From: Isurus oxyrinchus
Taxonomy: Eukaryota
DNA length: 48,696 nucleotides
Direction of reading: 5' to 3'
Assembly: GCA_026770705.1 (NCBI GenBank)
Contig: JANJGN010000926.1
Span: forward strand, 186,001 to 234,696
The number at the start of each line of letters is the position of its first letter. The first letter of the stretch is position 1. This document shows, piece after piece, positions 346-35,857 of the stretch. Under the pieces are notes generated by a model. The model was not told the DNA's origin. It saw only the letters and a list, made by a program, of their open reading frames with translations, and did not search any database. The position numbers and the translations under genes are program-made.

Positions 346-1614
346 GGACAGTGTGAGGGGTGGAAGGTGTAGTGGGGAGGAGACTCTTCACTCAGGGGGG
401 AGGTGTCATCACCCCTCAGCTCGGTTTACGTTACAGCTATGATGTGGATTCAATCACACACAATAAGCTCATGGATCTGGGAGCAGAAATAGGCAAATCA
501 TTAAAAATAGTGACGCTGGTTAACACGACCAAAAAACAAGCAAATCAAACACTATTATTTCCCATTGAGTGTTGGATGTGAATTGTTGAGTAATTATAAC
601 ACAGCACTTACCAGAAACGTGAAGCTGGGTTACAGGGTAATAGTTATGGCTCGGACGATTGCCAAATTTTATCGTGAAAAGATAATGTCCTGCATCTTCC
701 CGTCTGATGTTGTTTATAATCAGGGAACAGTCACCATCTTTCAGGTCTCCAGACAGCCAGGTCCGATGGTGGAACTGTGATAACTCGCGACTGTGACCCT
801 TGGAGTGAAAGGCTATAGACCATTTAGACCATTTGTTCCGTATGTATCTTCTCATTTTCCAGATTCAGACCTGTGGTTTCTTTACCAAATCTGATGGATA
901 ACTGTAATGACATGGTATCTGTACACACGAACCTTCCTGCGCTGTCACCTCTCGTGGAGTATCACCTTTCCACTCTTGTGACAATCCAACTGGGGAGAGA
1001 AATATCAATATTTAACTCTGGATGTTTTGTTGATTCACTAAGCTCGATATCCACCCCCTCCATCACTCGGGCACAGTGGCTGCAGTGTGGACCATCTACA
1101 GGACACACAATGAACTCCACAAGGTATCAAACCAGATGGAAGAGAATCCTGGACACAAAAGCGGAAAAGTTCATTCTACATTGGTTCATGGTCCTCAGGA
1201 CCCTGTTTGTGCAGAAGCCTGTTCTCCAACAGAACTGAAGTTGGGGACAATGCATTTGGAATTCCACTGTCCGGGGCATTGGGTTAACTTGCTGAGTTTG
1301 TTTTAAATCTAACATCTATTTTTGGTCTGTTGCCTTAAAGGGAGTGTAACTGGGAGTCAGGTTAATTAGGAATTTTAGGAGTTATTATAGCAGTCATTGT
1401 AGTCTTATGTATGTGCTTAAAATCTTTTATTTTGATGACAAATATTTTAATTTATTTTTTTAACTCTCTAAAGGTCTTGGTGTAATTATTGCTTCTGAAT
1501 TCAGTGCACACATCTCATAATAAATACAAATTGCAAAATCATGATGATCGTGTGACCACCTTTCTCTCATGGACTTGGTCTGCCTGGCACACATCACCTG
1601 CCAAGTGATAACAC

Positions 1615-2909
1615 TGTTGTAAACTGCCTTTCAGGGACAGCAGCATGACATCACTCGAGGGGAAGTGTGTCATGTGATTTTTAGGAACTGGTGTTCGCTT
1701 AAGTAAGTTCTATGTGTATTTGTGTGTGTTAGGCAAAAGGTCTATCTTCAAGTTCAAGTTTAGTTTGTATTTCTGTATTTGGGTGTTGAGAAAAGGGGGA
1801 ACTTGAGTTAAAAAGAAGCCAGCATTCCATTGAGGTTTAATGACTGTTGAAGGGAAGTCAAAACAAATACAAGGTGTAAGAAACTGTGCTGTTGCCTAGC
1901 AACAGTGATCCAGAGGGAAGGACCCACAGAGAGAGAGAAAAACAGAAAAGTACTTTCAGTTCAGTTGAAAGGAGTTGCCAGGAGACGCAGCAAAGGAGCG
2001 GGACAGATAGTCAGTCCCAAAGTAAAGAAGAAGCCAAAACTATCGAGTTTGACAGGAGAAAGGGCCCAAGAAAACCTTCTAGTCAAATCTGGAAAAGGCC
2101 CTGTAAAATGAAATTAAGAGTGAGGAGCAGAAGAAGGCTTCAAGCATAAAGGGAGAAAGCAGCAGGACACAGGCCTAAAGCAAAATAGGCTTGTGAGAAG
2201 CCAGAAGATCCTAGGAGACACCACAGGTTGGTGACTCATTACTACGGCCATGTGAAGCCATGGTGTTCCATTGACACGGCTGAGCATTGGAGAGACAGGG
2301 CATGGAAGGAAGGCTGAATGCACGTGGCGATCCAGGGAGCAGGAACATGGGAAGGAGAGTTTGAAATAGTGAAAGTGGACCCTTGTGGAAGGTGTCTGAG
2401 TGAAAGTGTCATGTTGGAGAAGATTCCAAAGTGAGTTCTTGGAGAGTGGAGATTGGAAACCCTCATATGGATATCTCAGTTCAGTGAGACTGGTTGGCTC
2501 ACAGTGTAACAAGCGTCTGGGGACAGATGAGACATAGAATTTGTTTCAAGTGGGCTCTGCCACTTGCTTTCAGAATGTTGTGTCCCTGACCACAGGTCGT
2601 CTATTGGTTTACACGGACTGTGTACTTAGTGTGAACATGAGAATATAAGATAGTTATCGTAATTTGTGTTCTACTTATGTGTCTGTAAAGGTATAGGTTT
2701 GGGTGAAGGAGTAATGTAATATAGTTTGTCTTTCCTAGTTTAATAAATGTTTTATTCTTTTGTTAGACGTTCATCAGATGATTCCTGTGACTCTGTTCAG
2801 TAGCCGCACTCCACATTCCTAAATAAAAAATAAAAGTTAGGACCTATCAAGCTGAGTTCCACCCTGGGATCTGACTTGCCCAGTAGTAACATCAGCTGGG
2901 ATGGTAACA
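1615..2909 (+). mobile_element. LTR-like element (probable solo LTR) in the copy A intron
   Basis: Starts TGTTG, ends TAACA, has AATAAA near its 3' end (~2742, ~2822), and is absent from the equivalent introns of copies B and C. Confidence 0.45.
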
Positions 2910-5330
2910 CCATCCAGTCCAAGTTTCACTTTGGCCTGTGAGCAGAACACAGCTCACACAGTTTGGCTGCAGGTGTCTCCCAGCTTTCTATCCTTGTATA
3001 TCTGTTCTCATGTCCCTGTTCTAAATAACTGAACCCACAATGTATTTACCCAATTCCGTATCAGTGGCTGGTGCCTTTATATCATTATAAAAACACAACA
3101 TGGTGATCAGTGGTGGCCAAACATTCTGGCAGCAAGATTCAGTACAGGTATGACGTGGTGAACAGCCTTCGATCGAGCTACATGACATGAGACGACCCTC
3201 GACGCTTTGGTCAGACCACAACAGAGACACAGCATCAGAGAGGGTTGAAATCGCAGTGTACTGACTGCTCAGGAAACCTTTGAAGACACAGTGACGGGAA
3301 AGAGCTCAAGTAAAGAGCTGGGGAGCAGACGGATCCCTCGTGGTGAGATTACAGCACACGGCCTGTAGGTCAGTGAGTGGGACAGTGTGTATCGCCAAGA
3401 CCAGCAGCGGGTTAGCTCAGTCAGGGAAGGCGAGTGACCAGGGTGTGGGCTGGATCGATAGTGAGCGAGGGAGAGTCAAACACACAAAAACCATTATAAA
3501 AATCAGCCCAGAGAAGTTAGTGATTATAACGGGCGGCTTCGAGATTGCTGAACAGTAAATTGAATAAAAAACAAAGACTCCATTACTCCGTGGTGTGTTC
3601 CTGCCACAACCCGTCTTCGTGGGCGGAGCTTCGGAAAAGCGCACGAAAGGGGCTAAAGCGACACTCATCCCAGGTCCTGTAGGAGAAGGAAGGTCAAAGG
3701 AATATTGTCAGAATGTCCACGAAATTCCCCAGTTTGAACTGGGATGTAGCTGACCGACTATCTGAATTCAGAATGTTTAAACAACGTACAGAGCTCTGGT
3801 TGCCTGATTCAGGTGTGACTGAACCAGACGAGCAAGCCATAAAAATTCACCTCGCGATTGGGAATGAAGGTCTACACAGGCTGAGCACATCAGGATTAAC
3901 AGCAGAAGAGCGAAAGGATCCCCAATAGATACGGACGACATTGGAAGACAGGTTCAGAATCAGGTGAAACTCCATATTCATCAACTAGAGTTTATGTCAT
4001 TTCATCAGCCTACACAATCCATAGACCACTTCATCAGCCGATGTAGAGAAAAGGGTACGCACTGTGATTTCAAACACAGAGCCTGCAGACAGAGTTGTTG
4101 AGTTGGTGATCACATCCACTCCCATGGAAGCCTTCCAGAAAGATCTGCTAGATAAGACCAAAACCTATAGCATTGAAGAGCTACTCAAGGATGGACATAA
4201 ATACGAAGTGATCCTCGCAGGTCAACGAAGCTTACAGGTCCTCAGTACAACATCAATTGTTGACACACTCACTAGAACATCCAAACCTAGTGAGACGTGT
4301 GGAAGGTGTGGCCTTCTGCAGGCACCAAGGAAATGCCCAGCTTTCCACCAATCCTGCAAGGCTTGTGGCAGAAAGGGCCATTGACAGCGGCAGGGCACGA
4401 GAGCAAAGGCTGATGCAGCTACAAAGAGCCGTGCGCTGATCCAATCAAACCCTGCACAATGGGGAACCTTCAAGCAATAAGAATGACCATCCGCTATCCC
4501 ATCAGGAACATATACATGTGGTGACTGACAAACCAGGAAATGGCGATGATGTACACGACGAGACTAGGAGCGGTTCCACCTCTCACACATATCCTGACGT
4601 GGCTTGCCAATAAATTGTGGATTGTGGTCTTTATTGATCTCTCTGGGCACATCAAATTAACTGAAAATGTTCCCATAGGGGTGGGATTTTCTGGCCCCAC
4701 CCACTTCCATGATTGTCCGGTCCCGCCGAAAGCCAATGGATTTATGTCTGTCCCAGTCTCAGAAACTATCCCATCAGCTCAGTTCATGACATAACATTGA
4801 AATATGCAGACAGATTCAACAATATTGGCAGGTTCAAGGGAGCTGCAACATTACACCTGCAGGAGAATGCAAGTCTGTCAGACTCCTTGCATTAAAATTA
4901 ATACAATCCAACTTTGCCACACTATCTTGAGCCTTAAATGGCCAATAATTTCTATGCCTTCCAGTTTCATTTGCTCTCTCTTCTAATTTTGGCCGTGCAT
5001 CTCTCTCTGTTGAACCTCCTCTCGGGATCCGATCCCCTGCCATATTAGTTTAAAGCCTCCTCAGTTGCATCAAGGGTGTAATGTCAATTGAAACCAGGGA
5101 CAACATCGAAGAATAACAATCCCACAGATCAACGTGAGCAATTAAAGAAACCTCCAGACAATTTTGCCACCACAAGATCTCGATATAACAGCAGATTACC
5201 TCTACGCTTTAGAGACTCAAATATTCAACAGATCTATACACTTATATAATTGTCAAGAAATATGAAAATGATACCAGGAACCTCTTGTTCCCTGTCCTTC
5301 TCAAAGATCCATCCCTGCAGCAGGAGCCTG
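2910..5330 (+). mobile_element. Degenerate Ty3/Gypsy LTR retrotransposon (LTR end, PBS, gag, pol remnants)
   Basis: ACAACA|TGGTG LTR/PBS junction at ~3100. Gag-like MSTKFPSLNWD...FRMFKQRTELW with stops and frameshifts. Zinc knuckles CGRCG..QAPRKCPAFHQSCKACGRKGH at ~4300-4381. Confidence 0.75.
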
Positions 5331-6758
5331 AAGAGTTACTGATGTGGGGCTTAATTTATCAGATTGTAGAATGATCCGGAAATGAAGGATGCCATTTGGC
5401 CCATCGAGCCTGTGCTGGGCCTTTGAAAGATCTGTCCAATTATTCCCACTCTCACCTCTGCTCTCTCCTCCACAGCCCTGCAAAATGTCCCCTTCAAGTA
5501 TTTATCTAGTTCCCCTTCTGAAAGTTCCTGTTGAATCTGCTTCCACCGCCCTTTCAGGCAGTGAGTCAATGGTCTCTCTCTGAGCTGCAAAGTGCTAATG
5601 TTCTGAGAACTTTAAACTCTGCAGCAGATCAGAAACAATCATGATAACTCAGAATATTTGACAGCTTTACACACAGACAGCTTTGCCTTCCTTCTCTCTT
5701 TCAGTTATCTTGCTCCCTTATTGAAGTATCTAGCAAGGTGAGAATGGACAGGAAGTGTGACACTGAACAGCCTGTCTATTCTAGGAGCTGCTGTGTTGTC
5801 TTCATGGGAAATTCTGACTAAAATCAGCAATAGACACAAAATTTCAGGGCATTGTTATCCGAGTCCCAGCATCAGGATAGACCTCATCCCCCAGTTGGTA
5901 TTCCTGATTCTCTATTCAGCTGATCACTCCCCTGTCACTGGCTGAACTACACTGACTCCCAGTCCAGCAATGACTCAAATTTCAAATTCTCATCATTGAT
6001 TTCTTACCCCACCATCCCCCCTCTACACTCTCTATCTGTGTAACCTCCTCCAACCCTAAATCCCTCTGAGATCTCTGCACTCCTCCAATTCTACTGTCAG
6101 ACAGGGAGTCAGTGTATATCAGTGAGCACAGGGGTGATGGGTGAATGGGACTTGGTGTGAGTTTGTACACTGGCTCACTGCTGAATCGGTTGCCAATCAC
6201 ACTCAATAAGAATGATCTTTTACAAAGACTATTAGCCATAAAACTGTCCGAGCTGACGACGTTATTACCTTGGAGAAGTGACAGGAGGAAGTAGGATTTC
6301 CCGATCATTGTCCACTCCCAGATACTTCATAAGCTTCTGACTCTCAAACTCTGAAAGAAAAAAGAGTTAATGAGACCTCACCTCTTGTCCGACAGCTCTC
6401 AAGAGATCAGAACTGTTTTTGGACAATGTCTTTACAGAGTAATTTGATTCTCTGTGGGATGATAGGTGCTCTGCAGAGAGTTACAAGGCTTTAAGAAATA
6501 AAAACATTGAAGGATTTGCATTTCTATAGCACCTTTCACCACCTCAAGACGTCCCAAAGCTCATGTCTCTGCACTTCCCTCATCCCTTGAGCTAGAAAGA
6601 TGTTCTGTACAACAGACTTGAGTCTCACACCCAGATCTCAATAACCAGTAGAAATCTTTCAAAGGCATCAATCATTGGAATCGGTCTTTATAAAGTCACA
6701 ACATCAACAAAGGACGGTGTTGGTCGTGGAAGTGAATTCCAGTCGTTCCGTTACTTAC

Positions 6759-6899
6759 CCAGGACCTGTCCGACTGCTCGCCTGGGGAGGAACTGCCCAC
6801 ACGCTCTGCTTGGGCTGAATGACCTCTTCCTGTGCTGCTCCCTCTGTGTGTTTAATTAGAAAGGGTGGATGTGTCACTGTGAGACAAAATGAGGAAGTG
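6759..6899 (-). promoter_or_regulatory. Non-coding first exon and promoter of copy A, with PU.1/ETS motif
   Basis: Donor GG|gtaagt at 6759. AAAATGAGGAAGTG at 6886-6899 is conserved at the same place in copies B and C. Confidence 0.6.
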
Positions 6900-7124: not shown

Positions 7125-8108
7125 GAGGGAGTGCTGCACTGTCAGCGGGACTCTACTGTGGGAGTGCTGCACTATCAGAGGGTCAGTAATGGGAGAGTGC
7201 TGCACTGTCAGAGGGTCAGTAATGAGGGAGTGCTGCACTGTCAGAGGGTCAGTAATGTGGGAGTGCTGCACTGTCAGAGGGTCAGTAATGAGGGAGTGCT
7301 GCACGGTCAGAGGTTCAGTACTGAGGGAGTGCTGCACTGTCAGAGGGTCAGTAATGTGGGAGTGCTGAACTGTCGGCGGGTCTGTATTGAGTGAGTTCCG
7401 CACAGTCAGAGGGTCAGTATTGAGGGGGTGCCGGACTGTGGGAGGGTTAGTACTGAGGTAGAGCCGAGTGTGAGAAGATATCCTTTCATGGCAAAGTTTA
7501 ACTGGAATTTATTTAAACAGAATTCTTGTACTGTGTGTTATTGCAAAAGAAAGGATTTGAGGAACTAAGTCTTGTTCCCGTAAGCCTAAAAATAATTTTC
7601 ACCGATTCAATGATTTAGCATTGAAACCTCCCTCTTTGGGCACCAGTCTTGATTGAATCAACTCGAACAGCACCATGGGAGGGTGAGTACTGAGGGAGTG
7701 CTGCACTGTGGGAGGGTGAGTACTGAGAGAGGGCTGCGCTGTGGGAGGGTGAGTACTGAGGGAGTGCTGCACTGTCAGAGAGTCTGTACTGAGGGAGTGC
7801 TGCACTGTCAGAAGGTGTGTACCGTGGGAGTGCTGAACTGTCGGAAGGTCAGTAGTGAGGGTGGGATACAGTGTCAGAGGATCAGTACTGAGGGAGTGCT
7901 GCACTGTGGGTGGATGAGTACTGAGGGATTGCTGCACTGTCAGATTGTCAGCCATGAGGGTGTGCTGCACTGTCAGAAGGTCAGTGCTGACAGGGTGCTG
8001 CACTTGAAAAGGGTCAATAATGAGGTAGTGCAGCACTGTCAGAGGGACAGTAATGAGGGAGCGCTGCACTGACCGAGGGTCAGGATTGAGGAAACGCTGC
8101 ACTGTCAG
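7125..8108. repeat. 33-bp minisatellite arrays (GAGGGAGTGCTGCACTGTCAGAGGGTCAGTACT), two blocks
   Basis: Tandem units visible at 7125-7460 and 7675-8108; they produce the periodic 11-aa pseudo-ORFs in the track. Confidence 0.92.
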
Positions 8109-9543: not shown

Positions 9544-9683
9544 TCAAACAGTCTGTCGACTTCCTTTCACTGTTTGTCTCTCCCAGACACAGACTCCAGT
9601 GATAGTGATAACCACAGCCACAAGGAATATCACAGCTCGTATTCCCAGGATCAGGATCACATGCAGAATCTCTCCTCCACTGT
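9544..9683 (-). other. Transmembrane/short-tail exon of copy B with intramembrane Arg
   Basis: tttctttctgtgtgttctctag|AC AGT GGA... encodes (H/D)SGGEILHVILILGIRAVIFLVAVVITITGVCVWERQTVKGSRQTV*. Confidence 0.8.
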
Positions 9684-10074
9684 CTAGAGAACACACAGAA
9701 AGAAATCATCACTGACTCTCCGCTTTCAATCTCTCACTCTGGCTGAACAATCAAGCTTCATATCACTGCAACATTTGCTGTAATATTGACCCATCCACTG
9801 GGATTCAATGTGGAATGAATGTTTTCATTGGAAACACTCTAAGAGTGGACAATCGGAACTTTCCCCTTAGCGTGGAACATTGTTGAGAATGGATCATTGT
9901 GCTGTTGGACTCCCTGTCCAATGTTTCTCTCCATCGCTGTGTACAGGATTGTGCTGTAGAAAATTCTGGAAACGTTTAGTGCAGGGTGGAAATCCATCTC
10001 GGACGCGTGTGCGAATCGGGCAGTATCGAGATGGACTCCCCCACGGACTTACACCCCCCGCTTAATAAACAGTT

Positions 10075-10450
10075 CCAATCTTTACCCAGAGAGAGGGGAG
10101 AATGTGGAACTCACTCCCACAGGGAGTGGTTGAGGTGAACAGTATCGATGTATTTAAGGGGCAGGAGGGTCGGTAACCAGAGGGACACAGATTGACCAAC
10201 TGGAGGGGGAGATGAGGAGAATTTGTTTTGACAGAGCGAGTTGTTGTGATCTGGAAGGTGCTGCCTGAAAGGGCGGTGGAAGCAGATTCAATAGGAACTT
10301 TCAAAAGGGAAATTGGATAAACACTTGAAGGAGGAAGATGGGGTAAAGTGGAGTGGTGGTTAGTGGATCTGATTGGATAGAACATTGAAAGACCTGGCAC
10401 AGGCACAATGGGCTGAATGGCCTCCTCCTGTGCTGTATCATTCTCCGCTT
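10075..10450 (+). mobile_element. CR1-type LINE 3' fragments
   Basis: gagttgttgtgatctggaa...gtggaagcagattcaataggaactttcaaaaggg...gggctgaatggcctcctcctgtgctgt, matching the LINE tail at 8822-9430. Confidence 0.75.
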
Positions 10451-13400
10451 CCATGATCTCTCCCCCAGTCAGTAACCATTCCAGATCCCTCTTGAAGGCG
10501 ACAGAGAAACAGGAACTACCACACCCACTGACAGCACATTCTCAAGGATCCCTACTCTTTGGGAAAAGATGAACTCCCCAACATCCAGCCTATTCCTGCT
10601 TCCCAGAGAGTGTAAACCCTTCAGGGAGGCGCTGAGGAAGTTTTCAATAAAATGAATTATCAAATCTATCATTTGAGAAATAATTTAATTCTGATGAACT
10701 CACAGCTTGTGTAGCAAACTGGGAAGTGGAGTTGCTTGAAAAGCTGGGAAACACAAGGATTAAGTGCTACAATGCCACCACTGGTGGGAGACTGTAACTA
10801 CAGTGTGACGTTTACATAGGCAGTCATCATTATAAACAGGGGCATTGGACATACTGGGAAATATGTGCACTGGAAAGGTGAGTAAATGATGTAAGATTTT
10901 CACCAGCAGGAATTCTCTAACTAAACCTCTCCACCTCTCTCTTACTCTCAGATACACAAACAAAATCACACCGAATCAGATAAGGAGGAGTTGGGGCCGG
11001 TGATTGTTCGAAGGGTTAGCTTTCAGGAAGCTTCTTAAAGGGAGAGAGAGAGTTGGAGAGGCAGAGAGTATCTGTGAGTGTCTCTATGCATCTGAGTGTC
11101 TGTAATAGACTTTTTAATTTCCATATTCTTCCATAAATATGATTGGGAACACAAATCCCAGAATCCAGGCCAACTCTCCAGTGCAGTACTCAGGTAAGCC
11201 ACAGGGGAGTGTGTGCTAGTGTGTTTGTTCGTGAGTGTGTCTTTGTAATTGCTCATACATGTGTGTCTGCACGTGTCTATTTAGTTCTGTATATTTGTGT
11301 GTGTTTGTGCAATGTTTGAATCTGAGAGAGATGTTGATGTCTGTGTACACTCACGTTCCACAGTGATGGTTATGAACCCCTCCACTGCTCCATGTTCATT
11401 CTCTGCCACACACTGATAGTCTCCAGTGTCCCGATATGTAATGGGAGGAATCACCAACCACAGCTCATTGTTGGAACTTGTTCTGTTCATTTGGACATTA
11501 AGATGTCAGGGCAGGAATCAAGAAGCCCGTTCGCAGGATTACCAACAGAAAGTGAACCACAATTTATACTTAATGGGAAGAGAGTGCTGATTGGTTGGCA
11601 AGTGGTCTCTGATAGGTGGACGTGTTGCCATGGAGAATGGTGTGTGCGAGATGTAAACTTTAGACAGCTTGTCTCTTTATTCAGCAATAATCAAATAAAG
11701 ATCAATTAACTTCAATCGACTGTGAAGCACTTTGAGAGGTCTGAGAATGTGGACACTGAGAACGGGCTGCACTGTCAGAGGGTCAGCGCTGAGGGAGTGC
11801 TGATGTAGAATGAAAGGTGTATGTACTTACCTTGCACAGTTAGTACGAGGGTCCGCTCCGATGAAACAGATGGATATCTCACTCTGCAGCTGAGTGTGTG
11901 TCCGTGGTGTTTGAGTGATGGGATCAGGGTCAGAACAGAAGTATAGGTCAGAGTGACACCATGCTGAGTTACAGTGTTTGAGACTGATCCAGGTACGTCA
12001 GTGGGAGTTTCCCAGGTTAAGACAGGCGCTGCTGTTCCATTGCACGTTGTGTTGATGGTGCAGCTTACATCCACATGCTTTCCTGCAATAATTTCAGCAG
12101 GGAATATCGTGGGTGTATCTGTGAAATCTAACAGACAGAGAATGGATCCTTTTAGAGAAATATAACGTGAAGCATCAGTTCAAATAGAAACCACAGTCCC
12201 ACAAGAGAAAGCACTTTTACAAGGATGATATCAGAACTGAGAGGTTACAATGATCAGGAGAGATTTTCTTGCTCTTTGGCAGTAGTGTTTCTGTCTCTCA
12301 GCTTAATACACGTTCACTCCGAGACATGTGAATTGAGAACACTGGATGAGAGAAGAGGCTCAGACCAGAGATTGGAGTTCAAAGCAGAATACTGCGGATG
12401 CTGGAAATCTGAAACAAAAACAAAAATTGCTGGAAAGACTCAGCAGGTCTGACAGTATCAGTGGAGAGGAAGCCAGGGTTAACGTTTCGAGTCCGTATGA
12501 CTCTTCATCAGACCAGAGGTTTGAGTTCACTGGCTTCTCATTTCCTCAGTGATCTGGGTGATTTATTACCTTGTGGTTTGTTGGATCTTGCTGTGCACAA
12601 ACTGACTGCTGTGTTTTACATCTGTGACTACAATTCAGGAATAATTTCAATGGCTGTGAAGGGATTTGGATCCTCCTGAGGTGGTAAATTGCGCTGCAGA
12701 AATGCACATCTTTCTTTTATCGATACGTCAGACTTTTAAACAGGACAGGAGAGATTGATGAGAGTGGATAACCTGATAATACAGTTAATGCTTTTCATCA
12801 TTGATATTAAAGTGAGTATTAGACGTTGCTTTAGGACTGAACTGGAAGCTATCACCAGGTTATTGAGAATCAGATAGCAAGTTATAATAAGCTGTGTTTT
12901 GTGTTAATATGTAAACGTCACAGATTGTGTTATCTCCCATTGAGTGTTGAATGTGAATTGTTGAGTAATCATAACACAGCACTTACCAGAAACGTGAAGC
13001 TGGGTTACAGGATAATAGTTGTATCTATTCCTGCTGTCAAATTCTATTCTGAAAAAATAAGGTCCTGCATCTTCCCGTCTGATGTTGTTTATAATCAGGG
13101 AACAGTCGCCATCTTTCAGGTCTCCAGACAGCCTGGTCCGATGGTGGAATCTTTGATCCCTGTGACTGTGACCCTCGGAATGAAAGGCTATAGACCATTT
13201 CGGCTGTGGGTTCCCATCTATTCCTTTCAACCAGATTCCGACACGTGATCTCCCTACGAAATTTGATAAGTAACTGTAATGACATGGAATCTGTACACAC
13301 GAACCTTCCTGCGCTGTCACCTCTCGTGAAGTGTCGCCTTTTCAATCTTGTGACAGTCCAACTGGGGAGAGAAATATCAATATTTAACTCTGGATGGTTT

Positions 13401-14554
13401 GTAGATCCACTAGACTTGATATCCACCCTCTCCATCACTGGGGCACAGTGGCTGCAGTGTGGACCATCTACAGGACACACAAGGAACTCCCCAAGGTTTC
13501 ACAATGGATGGAAGAGAATCCTGGACACAGGAGTGGACAAGTTCATTCTACATTGGCTCATGGTCCTCAGGACCCTGTTTAGTGAAGCCAGTCTTCCACC
13601 CAACACAGAGTCTACAAGATACACAGGGAAACTGTGTAAACATCTCATCTCTCTACACTGACTGGTTTGAGCTTCGGTTTAACTTTCAGTATTTTTAAAT
13701 TTCCATATTGTGGTTGCTATGGTGAAACTGTGCAGGAAGAGTGAGGGCTGGACCCTCTGTCTATTCTCACTGCAGCTGTGATGTGGTCGTGGTGATTCTC
13801 AGTAAAATGAAACCCTCTGAGCTCCTCCATCCCCGAGGTTTAGGGAGTGAATTCCAGAGCTCAGGCCCCAGGCAGCTGAAGGCCCGGCCGCCAGTATTGG
13901 AGTGATGGGAATCGGGGGATGGTCAAGAGGCCAGAATTGCAGTAACACAGAGATCTGGGAAGTTGTTTGGGTGAGTTGCAGGAGGTTACAGAGATAAAGA
14001 GATAAGAATGATCTTTTACAAAGAATATTAACCATAAATCTGTCCGAGCTGATGATGATATTACCTTGGAGAAGTGACAGGATGAAATAAGATTTCCCGA
14101 CCATCGTCCACTCCCAGATATTCCATCCACTTCTCACTCTCAAGCTGTGAAAGAGAAAGGAGTTAATGAGACCTCACCTCTTGTCCGACAGCTCTCGAGA
14201 GATCAGAACTGCTTTTAGACAATGTCTTCACAGATTAATTTGATTCTCTGTGGGATGATAGGTGCTCTGCAGAGAGTTACAAGTCTTTAAGTAAGACAAA
14301 CAATGATTGATTTGCATTTCTATAGCACCTTTCACTATCTCAGGACATCCCAAATCTCATGTCCCTGCACTTCCCTCATCCATTGAGCTAGAAAGATGTT
14401 CTGTACAACAGACTTGAGTCTCACACCCAGAATTCAATAATCAGTAAAAATCTTTCAAAGGCATCAATCATTGGAATCTGTCTTTATAAAGTCACAACAT
14501 CAACAAAGGACGGTGTTGGTGGTGGAAGTGAATTCCAATCGTTCCGTTACTTAC

Positions 14555-14695
14555 CCAGGACCTGTCCGACTGCTCGCCTGGGGAGGAACTGCCCACACGC
14601 TCTGCTTGGGCTGAATGACCTCTTCCTGTGCTGCTCCCTATTTGTGTTTAATTAAAATGGGTGGATGTGTCACTGTGAGTCAAAATGAGGAAGTG
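14555..14695 (-). promoter_or_regulatory. Non-coding first exon and promoter of copy B (AP-1 TGAGTCA adjacent to PU.1/ETS motif)
   Basis: Donor at 14555; TGAGTCA at 14676-14682 followed by AAAATGAGGAAGTG at 14682-14695. Confidence 0.6.
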
Positions 14696-14799
14696 CTTGG
14701 TACCAAGTGAGAAAGCAACTCTTTGCCTCGCACTGTTAGAAAACTGTTAACCCTTTGCGTGCCAATAATGTGGTTGAAGGGCCATCGACTGTTCATATG

Positions 14800-16295: not shown

Positions 16296-17408
16296 GTGCC
16301 CTCTTGTTCCTGTGTAGCAGGTTCGAGGGGGCTGAATGGCCTCCTCCTGTTCCTATTCAATGGGCAGTCAAAGAATGTCTGATTTTGGACCTCGAACCCA
16401 ATTCTGTCCTCAGGACATTGACAGAAGGAGAGACCAGTTACAGGTTAATGCCGGAGGATTATTTATTTTCCCAATCTTTTATCCAAGTATCTCATCAAAC
16501 ACAGAGCAGAACCAGGATCAAGGATGTTGGTCTCTGTGATCTGTAACACATCGCACAGTCCACCCATCCACTCAGCCTTCAGGATGGATGCTCATTGTAC
16601 TCTCCAAGTGTGAAAGACTAAAATGATGGTTTATTGCAGCTATATCTCATTCTGTTGTCAAAGCTGTCTCATCCATCCATGACATATTGAAGAAGGTAAA
16701 CCTGCAACCAATTTTTCACATCATAATTTCCTATGTTCATTGGCAACATCAATGTAAACATGTCACGCTGAAATGATGTCCTGCCACCAGTGGTGGCACT
16801 GTATCACATCTGTTATCCTCTGAGCTGCAGAGAATTTCTCAAATCTCCAATCAAATTGTTTCCCTGTTTCCGGGATTGCTGATGGTTTTGCTCTTTAACG
16901 ATGAAGTGTAAAATCCAAATATATATCTGAAAATACATTTGACTACAAAATGCTGAGTAAATTTTACCAATCTCTTCTGCTCCAATTATCCACCGATCCT
17001 GCATTTCCTGAAGTCTACACTGGCTAATGAATATTCTGTAAAAACTGACAGACAGGAAGGTGAATAACAGAATGAAAATTAACTCATAATCACGGACACG
17101 GGATTGAATTTGTCCGTTCTGTCCTGGTACATCATCGAACGATATCTAAAGACATTTACAATCAGATTGGAGAGAAGGATGTTTCCAACAGTGAGGGACA
17201 AATCTGAAGGAGGATGTTCGAATTGAAACCCACAGACAATCATCCTGGATAGATCATTCCGAAGAAATTCCATCAGTTTGTAACAAGAGGTTTAAATCCA
17301 TTTCCTGGGAGTGAGTTCCTGTGGATATTAGGAAGGTAAATTGGAGTTTTGAATGATTCTCCCGTTCTGTATTCTCCCCACACTGTGTGTGTCTCATTCT
17401 TGCTCAGT

Positions 17409-17525
17409 TTATAAATTCCCATAAACAGAATCCTTGGCAAAATCACAGTTTGCGTAAAGATCATCATCTGTATCAGGATTGACTCCACGGTTAGATTTCA
17501 TTTCCAGATCCTTCTCATCTTTCTT
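17409..17525 (-). CDS. Orphan terminal cytoplasmic-tail exon with tyrosine motifs (ITIM)
   Basis: catttctgtttctattacag|AAG... encodes KKDEKDLEMKSNRGVNPDTDDDLYANCDFAKDSVYGNL*; minus-strand AATAAA at 16630-16635. Confidence 0.7.
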   Translation of the reverse strand, partial: KKDEKDLEMKSNRGVNPDTDDDLYANCDFAKDSVYGNL

Positions 17526-17662
17526 CTGTAATAGAAACAGAAATGATCAGAGTGACAATCAGAGTGATCAGTGTTTAGTATTATTGATCCAAATCGAAAA
17601 TTCCACCCACAATACATACATTAATTATTGATACTGTTGGATGCTGGTCACGAGTTTGTTGG

Positions 17663-20600
17663 GACTTATGGATCCAGTCTTGTTTTGGAGAGGCTGAGTA
17701 GGTACAATAGACAGAGTAGATCAGCAGACAGTTCTTAGATGAAACACATTCTGCTTATTTACAAAGGAACTCAGCAGCTACACTTGTGTGCTTTCAACTC
17801 AAGCCCTGTCTCCGCATTACAGGCTCTAACCATAGGTGACCGACTACTGAGGTACCTGCGCCACTCGGCTGTTGGACACTGATATAAGAGTTAAACAGGG
17901 ACTTCTATTAGTGAAAACCAAAGGTCAGCAGAATTCTCCAGGTGAACCTTGTGCACCATGGGGCTGACATCAGCAGAACTCTCCAGAAAGGCCTTGAAGA
18001 TCACAAGGGATTAACTCGAGAAGAGACATAAAGAGATGCTGAGGGTAAACAGATCAGGTAAAGGCAAACAGCACCAGGCTAGAACGAGATAAACAGCTCT
18101 TGCTTGGGTAAGGAGCAGATATATACCTGGGACTGGGAACATCTGCTTATTATGTGATTATGTACTGACAAGATTTGAATTTAAATAACCCAATGTGTAC
18201 GTGACTAACTCTGTGAACAAAAAAGATGGTTTCCCTGTAATGGGTAGAGTTCTGTTTTTAGCCAGGCCTGAGGTTGATTCTGAGAACACACCACAACACT
18301 GAGCTCATGTTATCTTCCATTGTAACCTTCTTCTTAAAGGTATATCACACATCAGATTACCACCACCCTCCCCCTTTACTCAGAAACACATTTTACACTT
18401 ACTTTTACCATTTTCTCAAAGTATCAGATGATTTACACAGATCAGTAATTTACAAATTCAGTCTTTCTGGGGGGTTTCCTTATGCGTCTGGAACGTCTCA
18501 GATCCACAGCTTCAGATGCTTTGTCAGGAGTCTCCTTTTCTGATGTTGTCCCAACACCAGCTTCTTCGGTGGACACCTGCAAACCTGTTTCCTCAACTCT
18601 TGCAGGTACAACGGACCCTTCAGACACATCTGTTCTCAGCTGAGTTCTTTCAACAGGAGACATAGACACAGCCGTGAAGACTGGTGGGGTTGTTTCTTGG
18701 TACTTTGTTTCTCTCCTCCTTATATGACCCACATGTCTCCATATGACTCGGTCTTCCACTTTCACATGGTGAGAAAGAGTTCCAATCGCTGCATTTATTT
18801 CACCCGGTGACCACTTTGGCCCTTCTCTAAAATCGTTCACATATACCGTCTCTCCTACGGTCAGCTTCCTGTCATGGCTATGCCAGTCATGTCCAGTTTC
18901 CTGTCTTCCTGGACTCCTTTCCACCTTCCCGCTGACATTTAGCATGACTGATGTTGCAAATGTGACGTGAGAAAAAACTTTTTCACACAACTAAGTTTTG
19001 GGCCTGGAATGCACGGCCTGGACGTGTTGTGGAGGCAGGTTCAATCGAGGCATTCAGGAGGGCATTAGATGGTTATTTGGATAGAGAAAAGGTGCAGGGG
19101 CATGGGGAAAGGCAGGGCAATGACACTAGGTCATGATGCTCATTTGGAGAGCTGGGATAGACATGATGGGCTGAATGGCCTCCTGCTGTGCCATTAAGAC
19201 ACTGTGATCCTGCAGAGGAGACTCTGAAAGGCAAACCGGTTTATTGATACAACCCTTTGTGTGTATTAATTGTGACAAACTTCTGGGAGGCCTTCTCGAA
19301 CTCCAATTGTTGATAAGCATGGCTCATATCAGCTCCGTGTAGGCCGTTCCAGTCAATTCTTGTCATCTCCACAAACACTTTGGCCAGGCTCAGGTCCAGG
19401 GACTATTGGTGCTGCCCATTCTGAGGACAGCACAGATTGTATCACTCCCAGTTTCTAGAACCTGCCCAATTCAGCATCTGCCTTTTCCCACATTGCATAA
19501 GGTACTGGTCGTGCCTTCATAAATCAGAGGGGTAGAGTCTGGATCCACATGAATTTTTGCTTGCAGCCCCTGGATCTCCCCGAGTTCATCTTGGAAAACT
19601 GAGATGTATTTTTGTAGTAGCTCAGGTAGCCCACTGGCTCTCAGTTGGAAGATCTCAGACCAATCCAGCTTAATATCTTTCAGCCAGTTTCGTCCAAGGA
19701 GGCTTGGTCCCTCACCAGCTCCCATCATCAAGGGTCATTTTACTGATTGACTTCCATACTGTATAATAACCCTGCTTATGTCTTTGGCTTGAATGTCTTC
19801 TCCCGTGTAAGTTTTCAATTAGTCATCTGTTTCTTCCAAATTTAATTGACTTTCCCCATGATTCCAGTATTTGAAAGTATGCTCCCCAATTAGCGTAGTG
19901 TTAGCTCCTGTGTCCACCCCCATTCTGAGAGCTCTATCATTCACCCTCACTGTTACATAGATTGGCTCTGTTCTTCCTACCTTTAAATTATACAATGAAT
20001 AACTATCTGAATCTGTTACTTCAGGCTCTTCTATGTTATGGATCTCACAGGGTTTTCTCTCTTGATTGAAACTCTGCCTGATTCTATCCTTGCAATCTCT
20101 CATGGGCTCTCTGTTTCGATGACAGTAAAAACAATTGATTTTTTTAAAGTTCCATTCACTACGAGGTTGTCTGCTTCACCTCTGTTCCCATTATTCCATG
20201 TTTTCTCTGCTAAGTCATTCCTTTTTATTTGCTGCTAGTGGTGGAGGTTTCCCGTTTCTCATCAGAGCTGTACATTTTCCCGCACTTCTTGGCTGAGGCT
20301 CCTCACCCAACATGAGGACGGTGACATTTTGCACTCTCCATATGTTTTTCGAGTCCCTCACTGCTCTTTCCATAGCCAGCACTATTCCCAGCGCCTTCTG
20401 AATATCCAAATCTGTTTCAGACAGTAATCTCTTCTGAATCACATCTTCATTTATACTGCACACCAGTCGATCTCTCAGCATATCATTTATAGATTTACCA
20501 AACCCACAATGTCCTGTTAACTGTTTCAGAATTTCCACATAACATGCAGCTGCCTCCCCTGGGACTCTATTTCTTGAGTTAAATTTGGACCGTTGCATCG

Positions 20601-21005
20601 TTACCGAGGGCTGGGGCTGGGAAGGAATCTTCACAAGGTTCACAAGATCATCTAAACTTTTTGAATCCATGGCACCGGGTGGCATTAAAGTTCGCATCAA
20701 TCCCTAAGTCTTACTCCCACACGTGGATAAGAGGGTCGCTCGCCTCTTCTCCTCCCCATCAATGTCATTCACTTGGAAAAAGAATGCGAGAGGTTCACCA
20801 TAATGAGACCAATCGCCCACCGTTGGGTCGAAAGGATCAACTCTTCCAAACTGCAGCATTCTTCGAGGGGACTGCTTCGGTTATTAGGATGGAAATTATA
20901 TTTATAATCACTGTGCGAGGCACGGCCAGATTTCAATTCGCTTGCTTTCATTCCTTGCTTTTTCTTCCTTGTTTTTCACCTCATCACCAGTTTATTCAAC
21001 CCTTG
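17663..21005 (-). mobile_element. Degenerate Ty3/Gypsy retrotransposon (gag, protease, RT start, integrase C-terminus, PPT, 3' LTR)
   Basis: Gag MLRDRLVCSINEDVIQKRLL; protease VDTGA; GPSLLGRNWL; integrase tail RRSRRIRKPP; PPT AGTAAAGGGGGAGGG at ~18366-18380; large internal deletion. Confidence 0.85.
17870..18298. mobile_element. Solo LTR nested in the Gypsy 3' LTR
   Basis: 429-bp block with inverted termini TGTTG...CAACA interrupting the LTR; no clean target-site duplication seen. Confidence 0.5.
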
Positions 21006-21039
21006 TCACTATTTTAGTTGACCAATGGGTTCGGTTTAC

Positions 21040-21680
21040 ATTCCCTCGGTACTGAGCCTGCGACAGTGCAGCATTCCCTCGGTACTGACCCTCCAGCAGT
21101 GCAGCACTCCCTCAGTACTGACCCTCCGAAAGTGCAGCTCTCCCTCAGTACTGACCCTCCGACCGTGCAGCACTCCCTCAGTACTGACCCTCCGATTGTG
21201 CAGCACTCCCTCAGTACTGACCCTCCGACTGTGCAGCACTCTCTCAGTACTGACCCTCCCACAGTGCAACACTCCCTCAGTACTGACCATTTGACAGTGC
21301 AGCTCTGTCTCAGTACTGACCCTCTGACAGTGCAGCACTCCCTCAGTACTGACCCTCTGACAGTGCAGCTCTACCTCTGTACTGACCCTCTCACAGTGCA
21401 ACAGTCCCTCAGTACTGACCCTCCAACAGTGCAGTACTCCCTCAGTACTGACCCTCTGACAGTGCAGCACTCCTTCAGTACTGACGCTCCGATTGTGCAG
21501 CACTCCCTCTGTACTGACCCTCTGACAGTGCAGTTCTCTCTTAGCACTGACCCTCTGACCTTGCAGCACTCCCTCAGTACTGACCCTCTGACTATGCAGC
21601 ACTCCCTCAATACTCACCCTCCAACAGTGCAGCTCTCTCTCAGTACTGACCCTCCGATTCTGCAGGACTCTCAGTCCTGA
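21040..21680. repeat. 33-bp minisatellite array (reverse orientation relative to 7125-8108)
   Basis: About 19 units of CAGTGCAGCACTCCCTCAGTACTGACCCTCTGA. Confidence 0.92.
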
Positions 21681-21908: not shown

Positions 21909-22048
21909 ACTTCCTCATTTTGTCTCACAGAGACACATCAACCCTTTCTAATTAAATACACAGAGGGAGCAGCACAGGAAGAGGTCATTCAGCCCAAGCA
22001 GAGCGTGTGGGCAGTTCCACCCCAGGCGAGCAGTCGGACAGGTCCTGG
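21909..22048 (+). promoter_or_regulatory. Promoter (PU.1/ETS motif) and non-coding first exon of copy C
   Basis: ACTTCCTCATTTT at 21909-21921; donor GG|gtaag at 22048; inverted near-copy of 6759-6899. Confidence 0.6.
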
Positions 22049-22492
22049 GTAAGAAACGGAACGATTGGAATTCACTTCCACCACCAACACCGTCCTTTGT
22101 TGATGTTGTGACTTTATAAAGACAGATTCCAATGATTGATGCCTTTGAAAGATTTCTACTGATTATTGAGATCTGGGTGTGAGGCTCAAGTCTGTTGTAC
22201 AGAACATCTTTCTAGCTCAAGGGATGAGGGAAGTGCAGAGACATGAGCTTTGGGACATCCTGAGGTGGTGAAAGGTGCTAAAGAAATGCAAGTTCATCGT
22301 TGTTTTTCTTCCTTAAAGCCTTGTAACTCTCTACAGAGCACCTATCATCCCACAGAGAGTCAAATTAGGTCTGTGAAGACATTGTCTAAAAGCAGTTCTG
22401 ATCTCTCGAGAGCTGTCGGACAAGAGGTGAGGTCTCATTAACTCCTTTCTCTATCACAGTTTGAGAGCGAATGAAATACCTGAGAGTGGACG

Positions 22493-22532
22493 ATGATCGG
22501 GAAATCTTACTTCCTCCTGTCTCTTCTCCAAG
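22493..22532 (+). CDS. Siglec-like copy C, signal-peptide exon
   Basis: MIGKSYFLLSLLQ + G|gtaata; acceptor at 22459; phase 1. Confidence 0.8.
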
Positions 22533-23455
22533 GTAATATCATCGTCAACTTGGACAGATTTATGGTTAATAGTGTTTGTATAAGACCATTCTTATTGAGC
22601 TCTGATAGGAAACCGATTCAGCAGTGTGCCAGTGTACAAACTCACACCAAGTCCCATTCACCCATCACCCCTGTGCTCACTGATATACACTGACTCCCTG
22701 TCTGACAGCAGAATTGGAGGAGTGCAGAGATCACAGAGGGTTGTAGGTTTGGAGGGGGTTACAGAGACAGGGAGTGTAGCGGAGTAATGGAGGGATTGGA
22801 AATCAAGTGTAAAAATAATCACATCGAGGCATTGCTGGACTGGGAGCCAGTGTAGGTCATCGAGTCACTTGTGGGGTCGGGGTGGAGGTTTGGGGAGGTG
22901 AAAGTTTGAGTAGAAAATCGGACGCAAAATTCAGGGGATGAAGTCTAACTTGATGCTGAGGGTCTGACAGCAATGGCCTGAAATTAGTGTCTTTTGCTGA
23001 TTTTAGTCAGAATTTCCCATGAAGACAACACAGCAGCTCCTAGAATAGACAGGCTGTTCAGTGTCACACTTCCTGTCCATTCTCACCTTGCTAGATACTT
23101 CAATAAGGGAGCAAGATAACTGAAAGAGAGAAGGAAGGTAAAGCTGTCCGTGTGTAAAGGGGTCAATATTCAGTTTGTATATTTGTCTTTGCTCTTGACA
23201 CATGCAGAGCTCAGGCTAGAGGCGCTTTGTTAGTGTGTTTCACAGTGTCTGCTGGAGTAGGGTCAGTGCTGAGCTTGGGGACAAGTCAGTCTACAATGCT
23301 GCATCGGAATCAACAATACAACAATATGGGGTTTCGATCAGAAATAATCCATTAGACAATGAGGATCCAAAGAGATTCCTTAGACAATGAAGTGACAATG
23401 AAGATTCAGTTGACATTGAGGATCCAGAATTAAATATAGATATTTCTCTCCCCAG

Positions 23456-23824
23456 TTGGACTGTCACAAGAGTGGAAAGGTGACACTCCACAAGAGGTGA
23501 CAGCGCAGGAAGGTTCGTGTGTACAGATTCCGTGTCATTACAGTTATCCAGCACATTTGGAAAGCCAACCACGAGTCGGAATCTGGTTTAATAACGAGAA
23601 ACACAAATTCGACAATCCCTTTGCCTTTCACTCCAAGGATCACAGTCACGAGTTACCAAGGTTCCGCCATCGGACCCAGCTGTCTGGAGACCTGAAAGAT
23701 GGCGACTGTTCCCTGATTATAAACAACATCAGACGGGAAGATGCAGGACCTTATTTTTTCAGAATAGAATTTGGAAGTACAAATAACTACAACTATTACC
23801 CTGTAACCCGGCTTCACATTTCTG
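23456..23824 (+). CDS. Siglec-like copy C, V-set Ig exon (intact, essential Arg present)
   Basis: 369-nt phase-1 exon VGLSQEWKGDTPQEVTAQEGSCVQIPCHYSYP...GIW...RTQLSGDLKDGDCSLIINNIRREDAGPYFFRIEFGSTNNYNY; Cys pattern fits the Siglec B-E intra-sheet disulfide. Confidence 0.92.
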
Positions 23825-24750
23825 GTAAGTGCTGTGTTATAATTACTCAACAATTCACATCCAACACTCAATGGGAAATAACACAAACTGTGACGTTTAC
23901 ATATTAACACAAAACAAAGCTTATTGTAACACACTGTCTGATTCTCAATAACCTGCTGATAGCTTCCAGTTCAGTCCTAAAGCAACCTCTAATACTCACT
24001 TTAATATCAATGATTAAATAGATTGAGTGTGTCCATCAGTGTTATCAGGTTATCCAATCTTATCAAGCTCTCTAATCCTGTTTTAAATTCCCACAAATTG
24101 ACAACAGAATGACTTGCATTCCTATAGCGCCTTTCACCACATCAGGACGATCCTTAATCGATTCACAGCCAATGAAGTGATTCTTGAAGCACACATTCTC
24201 TCCACTCTCTGGGTAAAGAAGTTTCTCCTGAATTCCCCATTGGAGTTATTAGTGAGGATCTTATATTGTCAGCCTCTGGTTTTGTTCATTTGTTCCATGT
24301 CTACTCGATCAAAACCTTTCACTACTTGAAAGATCAAATGAGGTCACCCCTCAACCTTCTCTGTTCACGGGAACAGAGACCCAGCCTGTTCAGCCTCTCC
24401 TGATAGGTAAAGCCTCACATTGCTGAGATCATCCTTGTGAAGCTTTTTACCACCCTCTCCAGTGTCTCTATATCCTTTTCCAAATGCTGAGTCTGTTCTC
24501 CCCTAGCTGTGAGCTGTTCCTCCACCCTCACCCAGTCTGGTCAAATCAAGGGTCACTGAGTGAGAGTGTATTAATCTGAGTGACAGAGATTCAACAAGTG
24601 TAAAAAGAGACAATTCTAAAATGATCATTGTAACCTCTCAGTTCTGATATCATCCTTGTAAAAGTGCTTTCTCTTGTGGGACTGTGATTTCTATTTGAAC
24701 TGATGCTTCACGTTATATTTCTCTAAAAGGATCCATTCTCTGTCTGTTAG

Positions 24751-25047
24751 ATTTCACAGATAAACCCACGATATTCCCTGCTGAAATTATTGCAGGAAAG
24801 CGTGTGGATGTAAGCTGCACCTTCAACACAACGTGCAATGGAACAGCAGCACCTGTCTTAACCTGGGACACTCCCACTGACGTACCTGGATCAGTCTCAA
24901 ACACTGTAACTCAGCATGGTGTCACTCTGACCTATACTTCTGTTCTGACCCTGATCCCATCACTCAAACACCACGGACACACTCTCAGCTGCAGAGTGAG
25001 ATATCCATCTGTTTCATCGAAGCGGACCCTCGTACTGACTGTGCTAT
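24751..25047 (+). CDS. Siglec-like copy C, C2-set Ig exon
   Basis: 297-nt phase-1 exon DFTDKPTIFPAEIIAGKRVDVSCTFNTTCNGTAAPVLTW...TSVLTLIPSLKHHGHTLSCRVRY; extra Cys for the interdomain bond. Confidence 0.9.
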
Positions 25048-29430: not shown

Positions 29431-29487
29431 GTTGATCTACATTATGGGACTGAATTCCCTGGAGTGAGACTCAGACCAGTGATTTAG

Positions 29488-34714: not shown

Positions 34715-35857
34715 GCCTGTGAGGATGCTTCAATTCTTCAAACTCATTCCGAGATACACTCTCATATTCCCCCAGCAACTCAGCAACTCCTCCAGTGAAA
34801 CATTTCAGAGCAGCTGAGCTTGGTTTTCTGGAACCAGTCTCGGCCCAGAAGACTAGGGCCCTCACCTGTCGCTATGATCACTGGAAGCTGGGCTGTCTGC
34901 TGCCTGTAGGACACAGGTACTGGGACCAGGTCCTTTCCCTGTATGGATTCTCCAGTGTGTGTCTTCAGCTGATCCATTGTTGGCTCTAAATTCAGCGTCT
35001 GGGTTCCTTCATTTAGCTGTTTAAATGTGGGCTCTTCCACCACTGTGTCTGAGGCTCCCGTATCTGCCCCATTACTAGTGGCTGCCCATTCACTTGGGTT
35101 GTGATGGTTATAGGTTCAGTTTTTACCACTGTGACATTGGACAGGGAATAGACATCGGTATCAGCAGCTTCAGGCTCTGTGATATTATTCACTTCCATCA
35201 TGTTGGTGCACTGTCTGATGGGCTGTCTCGATTTCACCCTGCATTGCTTTATTACCCGCCCCTTTCTTGTGGCAGTGATGGCATTCTGCCCCCTTGAACC
35301 TGCAGGTGTCCGGTACGAGCTCACCCCCCCCACATCGAGAACAGACCAACTTCGGAGTTGCTGCTGAAATACTCCCACAAAGCCTTTTAGTTTCTGGAGC
35401 GGCAGAGACTGTCTCTCGCTTGGCGGCTGTCTCTCTCTCTCTCTCTCTCACTCCAGTTTGAGCCTCACGCCCGGTGGTTGGTTCCTGTCCCAGCTGAGGA
35501 CTGGTGCCATGTTGTACATCCTGTAAATCCCGCCAGTCTCTCCCAGCACTTTCCATGCCTGGCGCTATTTCCATAGTGCGCTTCAAATCGATGTCGGCTT
35601 CTGCGAGTAAACGGCTCTGAATGGCGTTGGGGTGAACGACACAAACCAATCGGCCCCGCAACATGTCATTGAGTGTGTCTCCGAGGTCCCAGTGCTCAGT
35701 CACCTGCTTCCACTTCACTGTATAGGTTGCGATGGACTCTCCCTGGGCCCTTACTCTGGAGTTAAACTTAAACCTCTGCATTATTACCCACGGCTTCAGC
35801 TGAAAACACATCTTCATGAGGTCGACTAATTGGTGAAAAGATTTAGAATTGGGTGCA
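34715..35857 (-). mobile_element. Gypsy gag-protease fragment, same family as 17663-21005
   Basis: VIMQRFKFNSRVRAQGES...MLRGRLVC; CSRCGG...CRFKGAECHHCHKKG; EPEAADTDVYSL; GEGPSLLGRDW. Confidence 0.85.

What the first reader, a model, noticed from the sequence alone, without database searches (positions are those of the whole stretch)
16630..17525. Orphan ITIM-containing terminal exon with its own 3' UTR and poly(A) signal
The 117-nt exon encodes ...DDDLYANCDFAKDSVYGNL*. SVYGNL matches the ITIM consensus (S/I/V/L)xYxx(I/V/L), and both YxN motifs fit Grb2-SH2 preference. AATAAA lies ~780 nt downstream. On its upstream side there is only a Gypsy element and then copy C on the opposite strand, so its parent gene is detached.
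Basis: partly seen in the sequence, partly recalled or inferred. Interest (0 to 1): 0.75.

Follow-up and report, generated by a model that had tools for sequence, protein, structure and literature searches.

The report
Stranded tail of shark Siglec-like gene
This is the last exon of an ordinary shark immune-receptor gene family (Siglec-like, already annotated in other sharks), left without its membrane-anchor exon in a transposon-riddled gene cluster, so this copy likely makes no receptor.

Summary
The exon is real. Its 38 residues match the last 38 of a white-shark 'MAG-like' protein at 34 positions. The same tail ends Siglec-like proteins in five shark genera. In one public run, two contigs join the family's penultimate exon onto this acceptor position, but they come from other copies, not this allele. 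In the window, the transmembrane and penultimate exons are missing, so 'detached' holds. A Gypsy element sits 108 nt upstream of the acceptor and lacks its 5' LTR. The parent is most likely copy C, flipped in place (about 0.45), or copy D (about 0.30); misassembly is not excluded. Across 8 homologous loci, YxN is kept at each tyrosine in 7 but the terminal ITIM in only 3, so the tail looks more like a Grb2-type dock than a dedicated ITIM. Use of the poly(A) signal is unproven. Verdict: ordinary pseudogene debris in an immune-gene cluster; low interest.

The parts
17409..17525 (-). Coding part of the terminal cytoplasmic exon (phase 0; 38 aa plus stop; YANC and SVYGNL tyrosines)
   Evidence: 34/38 identical to the C-terminus of Carcharodon XP_041037222-5
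16630..17408 (-). 3' UTR as far as the first AATAAA (16635-16630); homologous sequence is covered by contigs of related copies
16462..16467 (-). Second AATAAA, an alternative poly(A) signal
17526..17633 (-). 108 nt of presumed native intron left between the LTR and the acceptor AG
17634..20990 (-). Degenerate Gypsy-type element: PBS-like motif at 20990, gag/protease remains, polypurine tract at 18377, 3' LTR about 18366-17634; no 5' LTR anywhere in the window
   Evidence: PBS, PPT and LTR-end patterns are recalled features
21042..21657 (+). 33-bp tandem array that precedes copy C and abuts the cut 5' end of the Gypsy element (inferred breakpoint near 21030)
21966..25047 (+). Copy C: tail-exon-1-like upstream exon, leader, open V-set exon (Arg kept), open C2 exon; no later family exon found. 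Leading parent candidate
34786..35856 (-). Second Gypsy-type gag/protease piece, starting about 60 codons into gag and fused to copy D's V exon; a same-strand integrase/PPT/LTR piece lies at about 27949-27020
35858..36144 (-). Copy D: 5' part of a V-set exon, cut off before the position of the Siglec arginine
36965..37010 (-). Copy D leader exon, 15/15 identical to the white-shark proteins P0002-P0005 and P0016; phase-1 donor
9546..14637 (-). Copy B, downstream pseudogene: stop in V, half a C2 exon, a different TM-like exon with an arginine and a short tail
613..6841 (-). Copy A, 5' part of a downstream pseudogene (stop in V); the rest would lie outside the window

Best explanation
The feature is the last cytoplasmic exon of a shark Siglec-like receptor gene, stranded without its transmembrane and penultimate exons and likely non-functional here, and its most likely parent is copy C, inferred to have been flipped in place. 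Shown: the exon's identity, the absence of the middle exons from the window, a Gypsy element 108 nt upstream of the acceptor with no 5' LTR, and copy C's 5' block abutting that cut end on the other strand. Inferred: a Gypsy element inserted in the last intron; later an inversion with a deletion removed the membrane-proximal C2, TM and first two tail exons plus the 5' LTR and turned the front half round. In intact relatives the exon is predicted to supply two phosphotyrosine docks (YxN, Grb2-type; in some copies also an ITIM for SHP-1/2) to a leukocyte surface receptor. The exon's family identity is near certain (about 0.97); the confidence figure covers the whole statement, parent included.
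For: Identity: 34/38 to the Carcharodon C-terminus, with the exon boundary at the same residue. 14 of 28 fetched proteins hit the peptide, 13 after dropping the unrelated repeat protein P0028. Junction: 2 contigs of run X1 carry a 15-nt loose end behind 17528 that reads as the end of the family's penultimate exon and has no exact match in the window. Missing exons: no tblastn hit to the family TM exon or the penultimate exon with 11 homologues or with sliding 35-aa pieces of P0004; no hydrophobic TM stretch on the - strand between 17525 and 37010. For copy C as parent: copy-C-type ectodomains carry this tail at 5 of 8 loci, D-type at 2, and one fragment has no ectodomain. C is the only one of the four family copies on the + strand, and it stops after its first C2 exon, so what C lacks is the missing exons plus this one. 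The second Gypsy's gag and integrase/LTR pieces are in order on the - strand between D and C, which would confine the flip to the C block if they are one element. Neighbours A and B carry stops in V.
Against: The closest tail (white shark) is attached to a D-type front, and D lies upstream on the same strand in the right order. No breakpoint was matched to an un-rearranged haplotype, because no genome was held. The exon's frame, acceptor and both tyrosines are undamaged, which fits a recent break or an assembly error as well as a dead gene. The junction contigs are from other copies (all four runs differ from the window at full depth at 17026, 17043, 17167, 17202, 17277 and 17299), and the runs are only guessed to be RNA. 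Signalling is predicted from motifs only.
Confidence: 0.45

Rival explanations
1. The parent is copy D: one gene ran from the leader at 37010 to this exon, as in the white-shark MAG-like model. Its middle was deleted and an inverted partial duplicate (copy C) came to lie inside it. The exon is equally dead.
For: P0002 maps leader (15/15), V (86/95) and last exon (34/38) in order on the - strand. The V exon is fused to mid-gag with no LTR at the joint, which looks like a deletion junction.
Against: D's V exon is closer to the white-shark CD22-like protein P0016, which lacks this tail (91/95, leader also 15/15), than to P0002 (86/95). 10 of the 14 D-type hits lack this tail. It needs an inverted insertion from elsewhere.
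Confidence: 0.3
2. Assembly artefact: a collapsed or misjoined repeat-rich cluster. In the animal the exon still ends an intact, expressed receptor gene.
For: The exon is undamaged and about 97-98% identical to listed contigs of related copies (e.g. 7 differences in 468 nt). The window is full of tandem arrays and has two N gaps.
Against: No N gap lies between 16630 and 37010. Both junctions fall in or beside transposon remains, and neighbours A, B and D are independently damaged.
Confidence: 0.17
3. Shared-tail locus: D-type and C-type ectodomain cassettes are alternative fronts spliced onto one common TM and tail, and the window is a broken version of such a locus.
For: The same TM and tail follow a D-type front in the white-shark model and a C-type front in the basking-shark models. 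Both fronts lie upstream of one tail exon in the window.
Against: All are computed gene models. Exon shuffling between tandem genes or chimeric models explain the pattern as well, and no species was seen with both fronts on one tail.
Confidence: 0.04
4. Exapted decoy: the same-strand LTR drives a transcript of the exon, and the ATG at 17501 gives a soluble 30-aa peptide carrying both tyrosines that would compete for SH2 proteins.
For: The LTR ends 108 nt before the acceptor, on the same strand; the ATG at 17501 is in frame. The frame is intact.
Against: Three out-of-frame ATGs lie between the LTR end and 17501. That Met is conserved in ordinary tails, so it needs no new role. No listed contig piece bridges the LTR and the exon (table cut).
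Confidence: 0.03
5. Chance motif in non-coding DNA.
For: Stop-proximal ITIM-like matches are no commoner than in shuffles (21 against 35).
Against: E = 2e-13 hit at 90% identity to the C-terminus of an annotated protein, with family exons on both sides.
Confidence: 0.01

Closest known systems
Carcharodon carcharias 'myelin-associated glycoprotein-like' isoforms X1-X4 (XP_041037222-5)
   Same: Last exon 34/38 identical, same boundary, same YANC and SVYGNL motifs; its leader and V match copy D.
   Different: The white-shark model has C2, TM and two earlier tail exons; here the TM and penultimate exons and D's C2 exons are missing. Its V lacks the Siglec arginine.
'Siglec-13-like / Siglec-12-like' proteins of Cetorhinus, Mustelus and Chiloscyllium (P0006-8, P0011-13)
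   Same: Homologous last exon (53-82% over the aligned part) behind a copy-C-type front; C's C2 exon is 95% identical to P0006.
   Different: Intact gene models. The terminal ITIM is kept only in P0006/7 and P0012. The names are automatic labels; orthology to mammalian Siglec-12 or -13 was not tested.
Mammalian inhibitory Siglecs (CD33-related Siglecs, CD22) and fish MAG
   Same: V-set plus C2-set ectodomain; best solved relatives are Siglec-8/5/10, CD33 and MAG. Tails combine ITIM and Grb2 tyrosines, as in CD22 (PMC3342095, passages).
   Different: The shark tail conserves tandem YxN more than the ITIM. No binding or signalling data were found for the shark proteins, and this copy has no TM exon.

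Membership tests
Terminal exon of the shark Siglec-like (MAG-like / Siglec-13-like) family | Sequence homology to the extreme C-terminus of annotated members | tested here: met
   34/38 to P0002-5, 82% to P0006/7, lower to six other loci
Terminal exon of the shark Siglec-like (MAG-like / Siglec-13-like) family | Phase-0 acceptor at the homologous boundary, joined to the penultimate exon in related copies | tested here: met
   AG at 17527-17526; X1 loose end encodes the end of the penultimate exon; 2 contigs of 1 run, RNA status a guess
Functional inhibitory Siglec-like receptor gene at this locus | Same-strand leader, V, C2, TM and tail exons in order | tested here: not met
   TM and penultimate exons absent from the window; leader D spliced straight to the exon is out of frame
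Functional inhibitory Siglec-like receptor gene at this locus | Transcripts bearing this allele's own letters | tested here: inconclusive
   All four laid runs differ from the window at six positions at full depth, so they are other copies or species
Siglec | V-set domain with the sialic-acid-binding arginine (position recalled; the importance of such an arginine is stated in PMC7226832 passages): copy C as parent | tested here: met
   C's FFRIE aligns with Siglec-8 FFRLE; all 10 C-type homologues have it
Siglec | The same arginine: copy D as parent | tested here: not met
   All 16 D-type homologues fetched have Tyr there; D itself is cut before this position
Siglec | Sialic-acid binding | not testable with these tools
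   Needs a glycan-binding assay on an intact relative
ITIM-bearing inhibitory tail | Signature [I/V/L/S]xYxx[L/V] (PMC7226832), conserved among relatives | tested here: inconclusive
   Met in this copy; kept in 3 of 8 homologous loci when I is allowed at +3
ITIM-bearing inhibitory tail | Phosphorylation-dependent SHP-1/SHP-2 recruitment | not testable with these tools
   SHP genes are reported from sharks (PMC12151841 passages); binding not tested
Grb2-SH2 docking tail | pY-x-N motif (preference recalled; 'YXNV' mentioned for Grb2 partners in PMC5302901) | tested here: met
   Two YxN here; 7 of 8 loci at each of the two positions; binding untested
CD33-related Siglecs or MAG (Siglec-4) orthologues | Orthology by phylogeny and synteny | not tested
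   Only similarity rankings were seen: MAG best for the D-type protein, Siglec-8/5/10 and CD33 for C's V with MAG within 5 bits

The most novel reading that the evidence does not exclude
The stranded exon has been reused: the Gypsy LTR 108 nt upstream drives it as a stand-alone transcript, and its internal ATG yields a free 30-residue peptide with two YxN tyrosines and an ITIM, a soluble decoy for Grb2 and SHP phosphatases in shark leukocytes.
Probability: 0.03. Interest if true: 0.7.

Novelty: new member of a known kind. Interest (0 to 1): 0.2.

Why it matters
As a stranded exon it matters little: it is one more fragment of birth and death in an immune-receptor cluster, and a warning that gene models here can be chimeric. 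The side result is of modest use to comparative immunologists. Sharks of five genera have multi-copy Siglec-like receptors whose tail exon is found behind two different ectodomain types and keeps tandem YxN sites better than the ITIM, whereas PMC7226832 (passages; a teleost study) states that fish genomes lack inhibitory CD33-related Siglecs. If the decoy reading held, it would be a transposon-made signalling micropeptide derived from a receptor tail.

Tried and rejected
No whole genome is held for the window, so the missing exons could not be sought elsewhere in the assembly. No RNA holder was listed on record; 14 of 20 runs were only guessed to be RNA and none held half the words. In one search, X2, X5 and X6 had no cover in the bin 17580-17653 and X1 had little; this is not used as evidence. 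The longest X6 piece (839 nt) stops fitting at 17529 with 451 letters left over, but those letters were not shown, so it is not counted as a junction. Pfam gave nothing for the 38-aa peptide. The search of 50%-identity representatives gave 2 hits: one true tail (P0029, unnamed) and one repeat protein (P0028, rejected). A 5' LTR, and an LTR split across an inversion, were sought and not found. 24 of 72 ORFs listed between 17600 and 37500 were scanned and part of the rest: apart from the Ig exons, only reverse-transcriptase and protease remains and weak chance hits came back. The orientation of the 33-bp arrays was rejected as proof of inversion because such arrays occur in both orientations in the window. 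Leader D spliced directly to the exon gives a frameshift and an early stop. Six literature searches for this shark family listed no paper on it, and one search was uninformative; the library lacks most subscription journals, so this does not show the family is undescribed. No supplements were read. Three look-ups of earlier findings were empty. No structure or complex prediction was run.

Full report
OBSERVATION. On the - strand an AG at 17527-17526 follows a pyrimidine-rich tract, and 17525-17409 encodes 38 residues and a stop, ending ...DDDLYANCDFAKDSVYGNL. AATAAA lies at 16635 (773 nt past the stop) and again at 16467. A stop-proximal ITIM-like match is not unusual in itself (21 in the first 37 kb against a mean of 35 in 30 shuffles), but the double-YxN form is (0.07 per shuffle).

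IDENTITY. A 45-residue query (the exon plus seven intron codons) found 2 proteins among 7 candidates, both Carcharodon 'MAG-like' isoforms (E 2e-13 and 2e-12; accessions). The exon matches their last 38 residues at 34 positions, with the same boundary. A search with the white-shark TM and tail gave 12 hits among 125 candidates, a search with the D-type V exon 14 among 64, and the representative library 2. Of the 28 proteins fetched, 14 hit the peptide; dropping the repeat protein P0028 leaves 13, which I reduced to 8 loci by name and contig length. They are from Carcharodon, Cetorhinus, Mustelus, Chiloscyllium and Scyliorhinus, plus one unnamed fragment. The exon is therefore a standing module of a multi-copy shark Siglec-like family. 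That the window is from a shark close to the white and basking sharks is inferred from these identities.

SPLICING. Contigs of four public runs, all only guessed to be RNA, cover the exon and 3' UTR. In X1, two contigs have a 15-nt loose end behind 17528. It translates as the end of the family's penultimate exon (W-A-L-R-N before the shared CAG) and has no exact match in the window. So this acceptor position is joined to the penultimate exon in a related copy. These contigs are not this allele: all four runs differ from the window at full depth at 17026, 17043, 17167, 17202, 17277 and 17299. Contigs of X1, X2 and X6 run past the first AATAAA; one X5 contig stops 26 nt after it. Contigs cannot show ends, so the poly(A) site is open.

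SURROUNDINGS. Read 5' to 3' on the - strand: copy D leader (37010-36965) and half a V exon (36144-35858), fused to the middle of a Gypsy gag with no LTR at the joint; repeats, with an integrase/PPT/LTR piece at about 27949-27020 and LINE remains; copy C on the opposite strand (21966-25047; open V and C2 exons, nothing after); a 33-bp array; a Gypsy element from a PBS-like motif at 20990 to an LTR ending at 17634, with no 5' LTR in the window; 108 nt of intron; the exon; then copies B and A, both with stops in V. The family TM exon and penultimate exon are not in the window on either strand (11 homologues; sliding pieces), and no TM-like stretch lies on the - strand between the exon and D. The first tail exon has three homologues in the window, but each sits about 440 nt before a leader exon of A, B or C, none upstream of the exon on its strand.

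PARENT. For copy C: C-type fronts carry this tail at 5 of 8 loci; C is the only + strand copy of four; its truncation and the missing exons are complementary; its 5' block abuts the cut end of the Gypsy element; and an in-place inversion would make it the nearest upstream gene. For copy D: same strand, right order, and the closest tail sits on a D-type front. Against D: its V is 91/95 identical to a CD22-like protein without this tail and 86/95 to P0002, and 10 of 14 D-type hits lack the tail. Each history needs about two events, and I judge an inversion with deletion a little simpler than replacement by an inverted duplicate. My split is C 0.45, D 0.30, misassembly 0.17, other 0.08. The order of events is inference; no un-rearranged haplotype was available.

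HOW THE TAIL WOULD WORK IN INTACT COPIES. Over the 8 loci the proximal Tyr and the Cys three residues on are kept in 8, YxN at the proximal Tyr in 7, YxN at the last Tyr in 7, and a full terminal ITIM in 3; the penultimate exon adds a YENC in the white-shark, basking-shark and one Mustelus protein. I infer a Src-family-phosphorylated tail that docks Grb2-type adaptors, with SHP recruitment in some copies. The pYxN preference of Grb2 is recalled; PMC5302901 (passages) mentions YXNV in Grb2 partners; PMC3342095 (passages) describes CD22 as having both ITIMs and a Grb2 tyrosine; PMC7226832 (passages) gives the ITIM signature and reports ITIMs in fish MAG; PMC12151841 (passages) reports SHP genes in sharks. 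None of these passages concerns this family, and no binding was tested here.

COMPARISON. It works like the tail of CD22 or of CD33-related Siglecs. It is a member of the shark family that RefSeq labels MAG-like or Siglec-13-like. C-type V domains keep the arginine that aligns with Siglec-8 FFRLE; D-type have Tyr there. Orthology to any mammalian Siglec was not tested. As a gene, this locus fails the test of a complete receptor.

NOVELTY AND SCORE. New member of a known kind, probably a pseudogene fragment; interest 0.2. Six searches listed no paper on the shark family, in a library that lacks most subscription journals; supplements were not read. The boldest reading not excluded is an LTR-driven 30-residue decoy peptide from the ATG at 17501; three out-of-frame ATGs precede it and nothing shows the transcript, so I give it 0.03.

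Noticed in passing
window 6841-6759 (-), 14637-14555 (-), 21966-22048 (+): Each of copies A, B and C has, about 440 nt before its leader exon, an 83-nt exon-like piece with AG and GT ends that is about 89% identical at protein level (copy C's) to the family's first cytoplasmic exon. Basking-shark models P0009/P0010 read through such a piece into a neighbouring gene's leader and V out of frame, so the duplication of a tail exon as a probable 5' UTR exon is shared.
   Followed up: partly
window 9682-9546 (-): Copy B ends in a different TM-like exon with an arginine in the hydrophobic stretch and a short tail without tyrosine, the usual mark of an activating paired receptor (recalled). No homologue search was left for it.
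   Followed up: partly
window 11505-11353 (-): Only the second half of the membrane-proximal C2 exon survives in copy B, 92% identical to the white-shark protein.
   Followed up: partly
window 36144-35858 (-) and P0002-P0005, P0016-P0027: A shark and skate V-set type with Tyr in place of the Siglec arginine occurs on proteins with several different C-terminal ends and with one to about nine repeated C2 domains: a modular family that may not bind sialic acid.
   Followed up: partly
window 16470-17525 in run X1: Contig word depth of related copies is in the thousands to about 20,000 in X1 against tens in X2 of the same sample, with several variant contigs; the tool warns that this is a poor measure of expression.
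   Followed up: no
window 14789-16072, 33991-34486 (43-bp), 7125-8108, 21042-21657, 29184-29422, 40161-40262, 42148-42570 (33-bp), 29485-29824, 32556-32764 (37-bp): Three recurring tandem-repeat families; N gaps at 41398-41645 and 45446-45673; low-complexity sequence from 46100 to the end.
   Followed up: no
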